From the NCBI RefSeq assembly GCF_009914755.1, contig NC_060943.1: a stretch of DNA of 64,000 nt; one strand, 5' to 3'. The notes under the pieces were generated by a model. That model did no database searches, had not been told where the DNA came from, and worked only from the letters and a program-made list of their open reading frames with translations. Shown here piece by piece: positions 14,865 to 18,692 of the stretch (position 1 is its first letter; each line of letters starts with the position of its first letter). This DNA is from the human T2T-CHM13v2.0 reference genome, Homo sapiens. Both the position numbers and the translations under genes were made by a program.

Positions 14865-17800
14865 ATGACAGGATCAAATTCACACATAACCATATTAACT
14901 TTAAATGTAAATGGACTAAATGCTCCAATTAAAAGACACCAACTGGCAAATTGGATAAAGAGTCAAGACCCATCAGTGTGCTGTATTCAGGAAACCCATC
15001 TCACGTGCAGAGACACACATAGGCTCAAAATAAAGGGATGGAGGAAGATCTACCAAGCAAATGGAAAACAAAAAAAGGCAGGGGTTGCAATCCTAGTCTC
15101 TGATAAAATAGACTTTAAACCAACAAAGATCAAAAGAGACAAAGAAGGCCATTACATAATGGTAAAGGGATCAATTCAACAAGAAGAACTAACTATCCTA
15201 AATATATATGCACCCAATACAGGAGCACTGAGATTCATAAAACAAGTCCTGAGTGACCTACAAAGAGACTCAGACTCCTACACAATAATAATGGGAGACT
15301 TTAACACCCCACTGTCAACATTAGACAGATCAACGAGACAGAAAGTCAACAAGGATACCCAGGAATTGAACTCAGCTCTGCACCAAGCAGACCTAATAGA
15401 CATCTACAGAACTCTCCACCCCAAATCAACAGAATATACATTTTTTTCAGCACCACAACACACCTATTCCAAAATTGACCACATACTTGGAAGTAAAGCT
15501 CTCCTCAGCAAATGTAAAAGAACAGAAATTATAACAAACTATCTCTCAGACCACAGTGCAATAAAATTAGAACTCAGGATTAAGAATCTCACTCAAAACC
15601 GCTCAACTACATGGAAACTGAACAACTTGCTCCTGAATGACTACTGGGTACATAACGAAATGAAGGCAGAAATAAAGATGTTCTTTGAAACCAATGAGAA
15701 CAAAGACACAACATACCAGAATCTCTGGGACACATTCAAAGCAGTGTGCAGAGGGAAATTTATAGCACTAAATGCCCACAAGAGAAAGCAGGAAAGATCT
15801 AAAATCGACACCCTAACATCACAATTAAAAGAACTAGAAAAGCAAGAGCAAACACATTCAAAAGCTAGCAGAAGGCAAGAAATAACTAAAATCAGAGCAG
15901 AACTGAAGGAAATAGAGACACAAAAAACCCTTCAAAAAATTAATGAATCCAGGAGCTGGTTCTTTGAAAGGATCAACAAAATTGATAGACCACTAGCAAG
16001 ACTAATGAAGAAAAAAAGAGAGAAGAATCAAATAGATGCAATAAAAAATGATAAAGGGGATATCACCACCAATCCCACAGAAATACAAACTACCATCAGA
16101 GAATACTATAAACACCTCTACGCAAATAAACTAGAACATCTAGAAGAAATGGATAAATTCCTCAACACATACACTCTCCCAAGACAAAACCAGGAAGAAG
16201 TTGAATCTCTGAATAGACCAATAACAGGATCTGAAATTGTGGCAATAATCAATAACTTACTGACCAAAAAGAGTCCAGGACCAGATGGATTCACAGCCGA
16301 ATTCTACCAGAGGTACAAGGAGGAACTGGTACCATTCCTTCTGAAACTATTCCAATCAATAGAAAAAGAGGGAATCCTCCCTAACTCATTTTATGAGGCC
16401 AGCATCATCCTGATACCAAAGCCAGGCACAGACACAACCAAAAAAGAGAATTTTAGACAAATATCCTTGATGAACATTGATGTAAAAATCCTCAATAAAA
16501 TACTGGCAAACAGAATCCAGCAGCACATCAAAAAGCTTATCCACCATGATCAAGTGGGCTTCATCCCTGGGATGCAAGGCTGGTTCAATATACGCAAATC
16601 AATAAATGTAATCCAGCATATAAACAGAGCCAAAGACAAAAACCACATGATTATCTCAATAGATGCAGAAAAAGCCTTTGACAAAATTCAACAACCCTTC
16701 ATGCTAAAAACTCTCAATAAATTAGGTATTGATGGTACGTATTTCAAAATAATAAGAGCTATCTATGACAAACCCACAGCCAATATCATACTGAATGGGC
16801 AAAAACTGGAAGCATTCCCTTTGAAAACTGGCACAAGACAGGGATGCCCTCTCTCACTGCTCCTATTCAACATAGTGTTGGAAGTTCTGGCCAGGGCAAT
16901 CAGGCAGGAGAAGGAAATAAAGGGTATTCAATTAGGAAAAGAGGAAGTCAAATTGTCCCTGTTTGCAGACGACATGATTGTTTATCTAGAAAACCCCATT
17001 GTCTCAGCCCAAAATCTCCTTAAGCTGATAAGCAACTTCAGCAAAGTCTCAGGATACAAAATCAATGTACAAAAATCACAAGCATTCTTATACACCAACA
17101 ACAGACAAACAGAGAGCCAAATCATGGGTGAACTCCCATTCACAATTGCTTCAAAGAGAATAAAATACCTAGGAATCCAACTTACAAGGTATGTGAAGGA
17201 CCTCTTCAAGGAGAACTACAAACCACTGCTCAAGGAAATAAAAGAGGACACAAACAAATGGAAGAACATTCCATGCTCATGGGTAGGAAGAATCAATATC
17301 GTGAAAATGGCCATACTGCCCAAGGTAATTTACAGATTCAATGCCATCCCCATCAAGCTACCAATGACTTTCTTCACAGAATTGGAAAAAACTACTTTAA
17401 AGTTCATATGGAACCAAAAAAGAGCCCGCATCACCAAGTCAATCCTAAGCCAAAAGAACAAAGCTGGAGGCATCACACTACCTGACTTCAAACTATACTA
17501 CAAGGCTACAGTAACCAAAACAGCATGGTACTGGTACCAAAACAGAGATATAGATCAATGGAACAGAACAGAGCCCTCAGAAATAATGCCGCATATCTAC
17601 AACTATCTGATCTTTGACAAACCTGAGAAAAACAAGCAATGGGGAAAGGATTCCCTATTTAATAAATGGTGCTGGGAAAACTGGCTAGCCATATGTAGAA
17701 AGCTGAAACTGGATCCCTTCCTTACACCTTATACAAAAATCAATTCAAGATGGATTAAAGATTTAAACGTTAGACCTAAAACCATAAAAACCCTAGAAGA

Positions 17801-18692
17801 AAACCTAGGCATTACCATTCAGGACATAGGCGTGGGCAAGGACTTCATGTCCAAAACACCAAAAGCAATGGCAACAAAAGACAAAATTGACAAATGGGAT
17901 CTAATTAAGCTAAAGAGCTTCTGCACAGCAAAAGAAACTACCATCAGAGTGAACAGGCAACCTACAACATGGGAGAAAATTTTCGCAACCTACTCATCTG
18001 ACAAAGGGCTAATATCCAGAATCTACAATGAACTCAAACAAATTTACAAGAAAAAAACAAACAACCCCATCAGAAAGTGGGCGAAGGACATGAACAGACA
18101 CTTCTCAAAAGAAGACATTTATGCAGCCAAAAAACACGTGAAGAAATGCTCATCATCACTGGCCATCAGAGAAATGCAAATCAAAACCACTATGAGATAT
18201 CATCTCACACCAGTTAGAATGGCAATCATTAAAAAGTCAGGAAACAACAGGTGCTGGAGAGGATGCGGAGAAATAGGAACACTTTTACACTGTTGGTGGG
18301 ACTGTAAACTGGTTCATCCATTGTGGAAGTCAGTGTGGCGATTCCTCAGGGATCTAGAACTAGAAATACCATTTGATCCAGCCATCCCATTACTGGGTAT
18401 ATACCCAAATGAGTATAAATCATGCTGCTATAAAGACACATGCACACGTATGTTTATTGCGGCACTATTCACAATAGCAAAGACTTGGAACCAACCCAAA
18501 TGTCCAACAATGATAGACTGGATTAAGAAAATGTGGCACATATACACCATGGAATACTATGCAGCCATAAAAAATGATGAGTTCATGTCCTTTGTAGGGA
18601 CATGGATGAAATTGGAAATCATCATTCTCAGTAAACTATCGCAAAGACAAGAAACCAAACACCGCATATTCTCACTCATAGGTGGGAATTGA
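14865..18692 (+). CDS. L1 ORF2p (APE endonuclease + reverse transcriptase + C-terminal CCHC), full-length 1275 aa
   Basis: Uninterrupted ORF. Endonuclease motifs (TLNVNG, QETH, GDFN, KIDH, SDH), RT motifs [10 protein letters not shown] and LFADDM (D702), PIP-like QTTIREYY and CWRGC...HCWWDC are all present. Confidence 0.95.

What the first reader, a model, noticed from the sequence alone, without database searches (positions are those of the whole stretch)
16600..18590. Mosaic L1: an L1HS-type tract embedded inside an older L1PA3-type element
Seen in sequence, interpreted against remembered consensus diagnostics. The 5'UTR, ORF1 and first ~1.7 kb of ORF2 carry old-type states ([35 protein letters not shown]) and many private changes. 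From 16629 to at least 18413, every diagnostic I can recall is young L1HS-type: INRAKD, gaaaaagcc, GTYFK, gcaatcagg, gacgacatgattgtttat, QIMGE, aaggaaataaaagaggac, GVGKD, ATKDK, QPTTW, actatgagatat, ggatgcgga, YPNEYK. From 18587 old states return (EFMSF, LEIII, gagaacacatgg, ggaacatcac, non-Ta GAG). A single TSD flanks the whole element. Inference: ectopic gene conversion, or cDNA-templated repair, replaced most of the RT and C-terminal region of a decayed L1PA3 with L1HS-type sequence. About ten private changes inside the tract argue against simple consensus polishing.
Basis: partly seen in the sequence, partly recalled or inferred. Interest (0 to 1): 0.8.

Follow-up and report, generated by a model that had tools for sequence, protein, structure and literature searches.

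The report
Young L1 patch inside old L1
A roughly 2,000-base stretch of an old, decayed human L1 retrotransposon has been overwritten with sequence from the youngest human L1 family, a clean example of the known process of copy-to-copy gene conversion and not a new kind of element.

Summary
The full-length L1 lies at window 12886-18910 on the + strand.

- **Old flanks.** From 13372 to 16512 and from 18587 to 18908 the element is old-type and carries many changes of its own.
- **Young tract.** A colinear stretch has a minimum span of 16629-18413 and a maximum span of 16513-18586. It is 99.35% identical to L1HS-Ta copies and carries the two Ta-1 hallmark bases.
- **Best genome-wide matches.** They are about 99% for the tract, 97% for the 5' part of ORF2 and 96% for the 3' end.
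- **Subfamily-diagnostic sites.** The window has the old state at 24 of 24 sites up to 16256. It has the young state at 8 of 10 sites from 16859 to 17968.
- **Private changes.** Density falls from 1.72% to 0.38%.
- **Trees.** The flank is basal to all compared copies, and the tract nests in the young crown.
- **Control.** Twenty-two ordinary old copies show no such drop.
- **Permutation test.** A two-breakpoint scan gives LLR 30.2, reached by 0 of 200 permutations.

The best reading is homology-directed replacement (ectopic gene conversion) by a Ta-1-like template. Whether that template was a genomic copy or a cDNA cannot be told. No donor carrying the tract's private changes was found.

The "L1PA3" label is plausible but shown only as "L1PA2 or older, basal". 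ORF2 is open for 1,275 codons and ORF1 is broken.

The phenomenon is known, so interest is modest.

The parts
12870..12881 (+). Candidate 5' target-site duplication (12 nt, 11/12 identical to 18909-18920)
   Evidence: Local alignment. It lies directly at the element's ends, but the score is not significant by composition alone (159 of 2000 shuffles reach it).
12886..13785 (+). 5'UTR of the host L1. It is old-type from 13372 onward; 12886-13371 could not be compared.
   Evidence: Sequence. Diagnostic sites 13710, 13724 and 13730 carry the old state. The comparison loci start at 13372.
13786..14801 (+). ORF1 remnant, old-type. It has five in-frame stops and a frameshift near 14451.
   Evidence: Translations. 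The column missing after 14451 is shown. Old states are present at 13826-14677.
14865..18692 (+). ORF2, open for 1,275 codons plus stop. It is a hybrid: codons 1 to about 549 are old-type, about 589 to 1183 are young-type, and 1241 to 1275 are old-type.
   Evidence: the ORF listing. PDB alignments to L1HS ORF2p. Residue numbering.
13372..16512 (+). 5' old segment: 24 of 24 diagnostic sites carry the old state and 54 of 3141 sites are private (1.72%).
   Evidence: Trees. Best genome-wide match for 14866-16600 is 97%.
16513..16628 (+). 5' breakpoint interval
   Evidence: The last flank-private site is 16512. The first sites where the window carries the young state while its closest 5' relatives (L041, L038, L033, L035) carry another base are 16629 and 16673.
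16629..18413 (+). Minimum extent of the young, L1HS Ta-1-like tract
   Evidence: 13 differences in 1,987 bases from the Ta copies L002 and L003. Young state at 8 of 10 diagnostic sites. Ta-1 hallmark T/G at 18410/18413. Nested among 26 young copies in the tree. CpG retention 12/14 against 5/12 in the flank.
18414..18586 (+). 3' breakpoint interval
   Evidence: The last young-specific states are at 18410 and 18413. From 18587 on, 26 of 321 sites differ from the young majority. Old-type comparison copies were not available beyond 18100.
18587..18908 (+). 3' old segment: the end of ORF2, the 3'UTR with GAG at 18804-18806, and the A-rich tail.
   Evidence: Best genome-wide match is 96%. The meaning of GAG comes from a PMC4866827 passage.
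18909..18920 (+). Candidate 3' target-site duplication

Best explanation
An old full-length L1 (L1PA3-grade, or at least 'L1PA2 or older') inserted here once.

Much later, about 1.8-2.1 kb of its ORF2 was replaced, base for base and with no change of length, by copying from a homologous L1HS template that already carried the Ta-1 hallmark bases. The replaced stretch covers the second half of the reverse-transcriptase region and most of the C-terminal region. This is ectopic (interlocus) gene conversion, that is, homology-directed repair of a break in the old copy.

- **Shown:** the mosaic, its limits, the different ages of the tract and the flanks, and the young affinity of the tract.
- **Inferred:** the repair mechanism.
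- **Unresolved:** whether the template was a genomic L1HS copy or an L1 cDNA.

The event has no demonstrated function. Its visible consequence is a hybrid ORF2 that is still open under a broken ORF1.
For: 1. **Identity levels.** The tract has many genome-wide matches at about 99% (3528 of 3591 bits). The 5' part of ORF2 reaches at best 97%, and the 3' end at best 96%.
2. **Cross-validated site analysis** with 29 young copies and 22 old copies. The window has the old state at 24 of 24 diagnostic sites from 13710 to 16256 and the young state at 8 of 10 sites from 16859 to 17968. Fisher p = 2.5e-6.
3. **Private changes.** 54/3141 (1.72%) before 16512 against 6/1588 (0.38%) after. Poisson p = 1e-6.
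4. **Control.** The 22 ordinary old copies differ from the young majority by 10-19, 9-21, 7-24 and 10-22 sites in the four 750-bp bins. The window goes 24, 23, 4, 4.
5. **Trees rooted on an older L1 from the same window.**
   - In 15100-16512 the window is basal to all 54 copies, with a branch of 0.019.
   - In 16629-18100 it sits inside a clade of 26 young copies, with a branch of 0.0055.
6. **Ta-1 hallmark.** T/G at 18410/18413 are shared with 26 of 29 young copies. 27 of those 29 carry ACA and two carry ACG at the 3'UTR trinucleotide (labels from passages).
7. **CpG retention.** 12/14 in the tract against 5/12 in the flank.
8. **Protein level.** 25, 8 and 4 residue differences from solved L1HS ORF2p in residues 1-540, 541-1240 and 1241-1275.
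9. **Colinearity.** No indels occur at or between the breakpoints.
10. **Neutral drift after the event.** Of the 10 tract-private changes, 6 are non-synonymous and 4 synonymous.
Against: - **No donor was found.**
  - The 30-mer carrying 18311G and 18317T occurs only here.
  - Stretches bearing other private changes have no identical copy.
  - No locus recurs among the top hits of those searches.
  - The DNA search scores only 40 candidates and skips common words, so a donor could have been missed.
- **Dating tension.** The tract's roughly 0.5% private changes look high for a donor that already had the Ta-1 hallmark, unless the donor brought some changes of its own.
- **Old-type states inside the tract.**
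  - 17773 G.
  - 18377 T, a state common in other L1 copies: 40 of 40 scored hits are identical over a 70-mer.
  - 17000 T, which is explicable as CpG decay.
  - These need either a patchy tract, an unsampled donor lineage or chance reversion.
- **Untested evidence.**
  - No ape orthologue, second human haplotype or sequencing read was available, so the timing and the correctness of the assembly are untested.
  - Old-type comparison copies were missing beyond 18100, so the 3' limit rests on young copies, one outgroup and search statistics.
Confidence: 0.85

Rival explanations
1. The template was an L1HS cDNA or RNA used to patch a break in the old L1 (cDNA-templated conversion), not a genomic L1HS copy. 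This is a sub-case of the best explanation.
For: - No genomic donor with the tract's private changes was found.
- Ta-1 elements are the transcribed, active class.
- L1 sequence is known to be captured at breaks, including 3 of 21 non-classical insertions into pre-existing L1s (PMC1920257 passages).
Against: - The tract stops inside ORF2 at both ends and has no 3'UTR or poly(A), so two homology-guided ends are needed in any case.
- The published non-classical insertions mostly carry deletions and extra nucleotides. Neither is seen here.
- The ten private changes would then all have to arise afterwards or come from the source RNA's gene.
- The donor search here was not exhaustive.
Confidence: 0.2
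2. Two steps instead of one. A 5'-truncated L1HS inserted into the old L1 in the same orientation. A later homologous deletion between the young and old 3' parts then removed the duplicated segment and left a colinear mosaic.
For: Young L1s are often found inside pre-existing LINE sequence (80 of 203 calls in PMC7026601, passage). Recombination between L1 segments is documented (PMC3024322 passages).
Against: - The 5' junction would have to fall at exactly the homologous position, because there is no length change and no indel at 16513-16628.
- No poly(A), second target-site duplication or leftover duplicated segment is present.
- It needs two rare events where one suffices.
Confidence: 0.04
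3. The whole element is a recent insertion of a chimeric cDNA, made by template switching between an old-type L1 RNA and an L1HS RNA during reverse transcription.
For: Recombinant L1 lineages exist. 35 of 2,267 young full-length loci were called recombinant in a pangenome screen (methods passage of 10.64898/2026.05.14.725010).
Against: - It needs two switches (old, young, old).
- The old parts carry 1.7% private changes. These would have to be inherited from a source copy, but the best genome-wide match to 14866-16600 is only 97%, and 96% for the 3' end.
- ORF1 with five stops would have been in the transcribed source.
- The TSD copies already differ at 1 of 12 positions.
Confidence: 0.02
4. 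Assembly or polishing artefact: reads from L1HS copies were folded into this locus in T2T-CHM13.
For: Only that L1HS copies are numerous and nearly identical, and that no reads could be inspected here.
Against: - The tract has ten changes not seen together in any other copy, one pair being unique in the genome.
- It carries old-type states at isolated sites.
- The breakpoints are clean and colinear.
- From general knowledge, a 6-kb element is spanned by single long reads.
Confidence: 0.03
5. No mosaic: a single subfamily throughout, with the apparent pattern produced by uneven evolutionary rates or by how the comparison copies were chosen.
For: The two comparison sets were each picked by similarity to one part of the window, which could bias site states. 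The 3'UTR evolves faster than ORF2.
Against: - The absolute best-match levels differ: 99.35% against 97% and 96%.
- Each set was evaluated on the segment it was not chosen on.
- The 22 ordinary old copies show no drop in the tract region.
- Ta-1 hallmark bases lie next to a GAG 3'UTR.
- Tree positions differ by about ten ladder nodes.
Confidence: 0.01

Closest known systems
Recombinant full-length L1 loci flagged in the HPRC pangenome screen (bioRxiv 10.64898/2026.05.14.725010 = PMC13192797; methods and discussion passages seen)
   Same: These are full-length L1HS, L1PA2 or L1PA3-class loci whose sequence resolves to two different lineage groups with defined breakpoints. 22 high-confidence and 13 probable calls were made among 2,267 loci, anchored on the same T2T-CHM13 coordinates.
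   Different: That screen removed such loci as a nuisance and, in the passages I saw, describes none individually.
Repair of a chromosomal break in a LINE by gene conversion from other endogenous LINEs (Tremblay, Jasin and Chartrand 2000; seen only as cited in PMC1920257; the paper itself is not held)
   Same: A break in one L1 copy is repaired by copying from dispersed homologous L1 copies, leaving a colinear patch of donor sequence.
   Different: That was an induced break in cultured mouse cells with short tracts (as small as 13 bp, according to the citing passage). Here the event is germline, fixed in an assembly, about 2 kb long, and crosses subfamilies.
Endonuclease-independent (non-classical) L1 insertion at double-strand breaks (Sen et al. 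2007, PMC1920257; passages seen)
   Same: L1 sequence lacking the usual 3' end, poly(A) and target-site duplication fills a break. 3 of 21 events were inside pre-existing L1s.
   Different: Those events usually delete target DNA and add extra nucleotides. Here the replacement is exactly colinear, with no loss or gain.
Gene conversion between Alu elements of different subfamilies (for example Alu Sx to Ye5, PMC554112; passages seen)
   Same: An older resident copy acquires the diagnostic bases of a younger subfamily without a new insertion.
   Different: The Alu tracts are at most 300 bp in a non-coding SINE. Here about 2 kb of a coding region was converted, and the reading frame stayed open.

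Membership tests
Full-length primate L1 (L1PA lineage) | About 6 kb with 5'UTR, ORF1, ORF2 (endonuclease, reverse transcriptase, Cys-rich region), 3'UTR and A-rich tail | tested here: met
   The element is 6,025 bp. ORF2 aligns end to end (1-1275) with solved human L1 ORF2p at E = 0. An ORF1 remnant is present.
Full-length primate L1 (L1PA lineage) | Target-site duplication flanking a single insertion | tested here: inconclusive
   An 11/12 match lies at both ends, but 159 of 2000 shuffles of the A-rich flank score as well.
L1HS-Ta (whole element) | ACA at the diagnostic 3'UTR trinucleotide | tested here: not met
   The window has GAG at 18804-18806, while 27 of 29 young copies have ACA and 2 have ACG. 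The rule comes from a PMC4866827 passage. The element as a whole is therefore not an L1HS-Ta insertion.
L1HS Ta-1 (the tract only) | The two Ta-1 hallmark bases about 390 nt upstream of the trinucleotide (G to T and C to G) | tested here: met
   The window has T and G at 18410 and 18413, as do 26 of 29 young copies. The ACG copy L014 and the ACA copy L027 have G and C. The hallmark is described in a passage of PMC13192797. The mapping of its alignment numbering to these two sites is my inference.
L1HS Ta-1 (the tract only) | Near-identity to Ta copies and placement inside their clade | tested here: met
   13 differences in 1,987 bases from L002 and L003. The tract is nested among 26 young copies, with supports of 0.77-0.92 along the ladder.
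L1PA3 (host element) | Match to the L1PA3 consensus better than to the L1PA2 or L1PA4 consensus | not testable with these tools
   No Dfam or Repbase consensus is held. Published subfamily primers (PMC12432230) do not separate L1PA2 from L1PA3.
L1PA3 (host element) | Pre-L1HS state of the 3'UTR trinucleotide, and a position below L1PA2- and L1HS-like copies in the single-lineage ladder | tested here: met
   GAG means 'L1PA2 and older'. The window is basal to all 54 copies in 15100-16512 and groups with the basal copies L041 and L038 in 13372-15099. Private changes are 1.72%.
Ectopic gene conversion | Colinear patch of donor-type sequence bounded by acceptor-type sequence, with no length change | tested here: met
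Ectopic gene conversion | An identifiable donor copy | tested here: not met
   No copy shares the private changes in combination. The searches were limited.
Ectopic gene conversion | Unconverted state at the orthologous locus in an outgroup species or another haplotype | not testable with these tools
   Only the window's own assembly is held. Ape genomes and other human haplotypes are not.

The most novel reading that the evidence does not exclude
The conversion is recent and human-specific, because its donor already carried the Ta-1 hallmark, and it may still be polymorphic. It may also be discontinuous, with acceptor bases retained at 17773 and 18377 by patchy mismatch repair. It renewed two thirds of ORF2 in an element that any annotation would call old. 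Such 'refreshed' old copies would then be an overlooked class of loci with open, largely L1HS-like ORF2 that escape L1HS-directed catalogues and 3'-end assays.
Probability: 0.1. Interest if true: 0.5.

Novelty: new member of a known kind. Interest (0 to 1): 0.3.

Why it matters
**Annotation and dating.**
- Mosaics like this mislead subfamily annotation and age estimates.
- One element would be split into 'L1PA3' and 'L1HS' pieces, or given an averaged divergence.
- They can also attract reads or probes meant for L1HS.

**Example value.**
- The locus is a clean, well-bounded natural example of an L1-to-L1 conversion tract of about 2 kb across subfamilies that differ by about 3%.
- That makes it useful for calibrating tract length and homology requirements of ectopic repair in the human germline.

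**Coding potential.**
- Conversion can keep or restore coding potential in an old copy.
- Here ORF2 is open, although 3 of 22 ordinary old copies also keep their first 1,083 ORF2 codons open, so this is not exceptional.

**What it does not show.** Nothing points to a cellular function or to an effect on UQCRFS1, about 13 kb away.

Tried and rejected
As a result:
  - old-type copies are missing beyond window 18100;
  - young copies are missing before 15100;
  - 12886-13371 has no comparator.
- *Other closed or unheld sources.*
  - Khan et al. 2006, Tremblay et al. 2000 and Myers et al. 2002 are not held. Subfamily ages quoted from Khan are recalled.
- *Slips.* translated the wrong frame by mistake and was replaced. 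One search failed on a term that was too short and was repeated.

**Donor search**
- The DNA searches with stretches bearing private changes gave no identical copy and no recurring locus.
- Those lists plainly omit the best young copies. In one search only one hit is as good as a Ta copy should be. They are therefore weak negatives.
- Exact patterns gave the following:
  - The 17190T 31-mer occurs at 40 places. This is compatible with parallel mutation among thousands of copies.
  - The 16736T 31-mer occurs at 3 other places. One is only 122.6 kb downstream on the same chromosome, but that copy is only about 97% identical over 16513-16760, so it is not the donor.

**Leads that led nowhere**
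- L002 and L005 looked like further mosaics. They turned out to carry a 12-bp and a 9-bp deletion.
- The subfamily-selective primers of PMC12432230 and the ORF1 coiled-coil paper did not give a test that separates L1PA2 from L1PA3.

**Considered and rejected.** Uniform subfamily, chimeric new insertion, and nested insertion plus deletion were all considered and rejected (see rival explanations).
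Full report
**What is there**

Window 12886-18910 (+ strand) is a full-length L1 of 6,025 bp.
- It is followed by an Alu at about 18914-19214.
- A 12-nt candidate target-site duplication flanks it at 12870-12881 and 18909-18920. 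The two copies are 11/12 identical, but 159 of 2000 composition shuffles of the A-rich flank score as well.
- ORF1 starts at 13786. It is broken by five in-frame stops and a frameshift near 14451.
- ORF2 (14865-18692) is open for all 1,275 codons. It aligns end to end with solved human L1HS ORF2p (8uw3_A, 9k6g_A and others).

**Checking the observation**

The window's own assembly is held, so I searched it with three pieces of the element. The best hits other than the element itself were:
- the preceding 1.7 kb of ORF2, 14866-16600: 97% (2913 of 3130 bits);
- the 3' end, 18591-18905: 96% (505 of 569 bits).

The searches returned two sets of loci.
- **Y** is 29 copies chosen by the tract. They cover window 15100 to the 3' end.
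- **O** is 29 copies chosen by the 5' part of ORF2. They cover 13372-18100.

I aligned all of them to the element and evaluated each set on the segment it was not chosen on.

**Who the comparison copies are**

- Of the 29 Y copies, 27 carry ACA and 2 carry ACG at the 3'UTR trinucleotide where the window has GAG.
- A passage in Philippe et al. [quoted passage not shown]
- The O set splits into three groups: five young-like copies, two intermediates, and 22 old copies.

**The mosaic**

I counted differences from the base carried by at least 80% of Y copies:

| Window bin | The window | 22 ordinary old copies (range) |
|---|---|---|
| 15100-15849 | 24/750 | 10-19 |
| 15850-16599 | 23/748 | 9-21 |
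| 16600-17349 | 4/748 | 7-24 |
| 17350-18100 | 4/749 | 10-22 |
| 18101-18586 | 4/485 | not covered |
| 18587-18908 | 26/321 | not covered |

- The ordinary old copies show no drop, so the pattern is not a regional rate effect. Ten of the 26 differences in the last bin lie in one 17-bp cluster of the 3'UTR.
- At sites where the young and old groups have different majority bases, the window has the old state at 24 of 24 sites from 13710 to 16256. It has the young state at 8 of 10 sites from 16859 to 17968. Fisher p = 2.5e-6.
- Private sites are those where the window's base occurs in at most 10% of the 58 other copies. There are 54 in 3,141 bases (1.72%) up to 16512, and 6 in 1,588 bases (0.38%) from 16513 to 18100. 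Poisson p = 1e-6.
- A two-breakpoint likelihood scan chooses 16521-18580, with 12/2055 differences inside and 73/1746 outside. LLR is 30.2, and 0 of 200 permutations reach it (maximum 10.7).
- CpG dinucleotides present in the young copies are retained at 5 of 12 places in the flank and 12 of 14 in the tract. Old copies average 0.65 and 0.49; young copies average 0.93 and 0.96.
- Against L1HS ORF2p the window has 25 residue differences in 1-540, 8 in 541-1240 and 4 in 1241-1275.

**Trees**

The trees were rooted on the older full-length L1 that lies on the minus strand of the same window (36739-42711, 87% identical). The copies form the ladder typical of L1.
- In 15100-16512 the window is basal to all 54 other copies, with a terminal branch of 0.019.
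- In 13372-15099 it groups with the most basal copies L041 and L038, with a branch of 0.018.
- In 16629-18100 it lies inside a clade of 26 Y copies, about ten ladder nodes higher, with a branch of 0.0055.
- Node supports are 0.76-0.92.

**Limits of the tract**

- *5' side.* The last flank-type private site is 16512. At 16629 and 16673 the window has the young base, while its closest 5' relatives (L041, L038, L033, L035) have another. The breakpoint therefore lies in 16513-16628.
- *3' side.* The window has T and G at 18410 and 18413. These are the states of 26 of 29 Y copies. The ACG copy L014 and the ACA copy L027 have G and C, and the outgroup has G and T.
  - A passage of the 2026 pangenome preprint (PMC13192797) names a G-to-T and a C-to-G change three bases apart as the two Ta-1 hallmarks.
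  - That these are those positions is my inference from spacing and states.
- From 18587 on, the window departs from the young copies at 26 of 321 sites, so the breakpoint lies in 18414-18586.

**Inside the tract**

Twelve sites differ from the young majority.
- Ten are essentially private: 16736, 16858, 17190, 17433, 17909, 18073, 18138, 18311, 18317 and 18377. Six are non-synonymous and four synonymous, as expected for drift without selection.
- 17000 T is explicable as CpG decay.
- 17773 G is the old or preTa/Ta-0 state.
- 18377 T matches the outgroup and is common elsewhere: 40 of 40 scored hits are identical over a 70-mer containing it, while none of the 29 Y copies has it.

One or two acceptor-type bases inside a Ta-1-like tract could mean three things: patchy mismatch repair of heteroduplex, an unsampled donor lineage, or chance reversion. 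I estimate chance reversion at a few per cent per site set. This is suggestive only.

**Donor**

No donor was found.
- The 30-mer with 18311G and 18317T occurs only here in the whole assembly.
- Other stretches bearing private changes have no identical copy, and no locus recurs among the top hits.
- The DNA search is a weak negative. It scores 40 candidates and skips common words, and visibly omits ordinary Ta copies.
- The 16736T 31-mer occurs at three other places. One is 122.6 kb downstream on the same chromosome, but that copy is only about 97% identical over 248 bases, so it cannot be the source of a tract that is within 0.65% of Ta copies.

**Mechanism**

- *Facts.* There is a colinear, indel-free patch of young sequence. 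Both sides of it are old sequence of equal decay. The element has a single pair of ends.
- *Inference.* This is best explained by homology-directed repair of a break in the old copy, using an L1HS Ta-1-like template. That is ectopic gene conversion.
- *Timing.*
  - The ratio of private-change densities is 0.38-0.48% against 1.72%. It puts the event at roughly a quarter of the host's age.
  - With recalled subfamily ages (Khan et al. 2006, paper not held: L1PA3 about 12.5 Myr, L1PA2 about 7.6 Myr), that is about 2-4 Myr.
  - The estimate is compatible with an L1HS donor if the donor contributed a few of the changes.
- *Unresolved.* Whether the template was genomic DNA or cDNA cannot be decided from this sequence.
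- *Rivals.* Each of these needs extra events or is contradicted by the calls cited under rival explanations:
  - nested insertion followed by homologous deletion;
  - a chimeric new insertion;
  - an assembly artefact;
  - a uniform subfamily.

**Subfamily labels**

- The tract is L1HS, Ta-1-like.
  - it is 'L1PA2 or older' by the GAG trinucleotide;
  - it is basal in the ladder;
  - it carries 1.7% private changes;
  - its 6,025-bp length fits the short 5'UTR form.
- 'L1PA3' is therefore plausible but not tested against consensus sequences, which are not held. Published subfamily-selective primers do not separate L1PA2 from L1PA3 (PMC12432230, whole first part read).

**Comparison with what is known**

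- Conversion between dispersed repeats is established. Sources seen here:
  - Sen et al. 2007 (PMC1920257, passages) cite repair of a LINE break by conversion from other LINEs, and describe break-filling L1 insertions, three of them inside older L1s.
  - Alu-to-Alu conversion across subfamilies is described in PMC554112 (passages).
  - The 2026 pangenome preprint screened 2,267 young full-length loci and called 22 high-confidence and 13 probable recombinants (methods passage).
- My searches for this particular locus or for L1PA3/L1HS conversion found no description of it. The preprint's locus list could not be opened.
- I therefore file it as a new, well-resolved member of a known kind.

**The open ORF2**

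- The hybrid ORF2 is open.
- From the roles of residues as I recall them, none of its 37 differences from L1HS ORF2p falls on the endonuclease catalytic residues or on the reverse-transcriptase aspartates (positions listed).
- This is not exceptional. 3 of the 22 old copies keep their first 1,083 ORF2 codons open.
- I make no claim about activity.

Noticed in passing
window 36739-42711 (minus strand): A second full-length L1, 87% identical to the element studied and hence a considerably older L1PA family. It was used here as the outgroup.
   Followed up: partly
G000:C19:31883152-31883399 (about 75 kb beyond the window's end): An L1 copy 122.6 kb downstream on the same chromosome and strand shares the rare G-to-T change of window 16736. 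Only 3 other places in the genome share that exact 31-mer. The copy is only about 97% identical over 248 bases, so it is not the donor. Whether the shared base is coincidence or a trace of another local exchange is open.
   Followed up: partly
window 18914-19214: An Alu lies directly after the L1's A-rich tail. The L1's candidate target-site duplication overlaps the Alu's first bases, so the L1 seems to have inserted at the Alu's 5' edge.
   Followed up: no
L044 and L055 (window-equivalent 15100-15849 against 15850-18100): Two copies carry old-majority states at 15185-15777 but young-like states further 3'. They may be a genuine intermediate subfamily or further mosaics.
   Followed up: partly
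L002 (window-equivalent 15832-15843) and L005 (18858-18866): Two Ta copies carry a 12-bp and a 9-bp deletion. In the binned counts these first looked like extra divergence.
   Followed up: yes
window 13786-14801 against 14865-16512: At similar private-change density (1.6% against 1.8%), ORF1 collected five stops and a frameshift in 1 kb, while the old 1.65 kb of ORF2 collected none. This is probably chance and CpG-containing codons, but it was not tested.
   Followed up: no
The genome search DNA mode: For very common repeats the candidate step favours copies that share rare words with the query, and it can omit the globally most similar copies. Hit lists from this mode are not rankings of the best matches.
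   Followed up: partly
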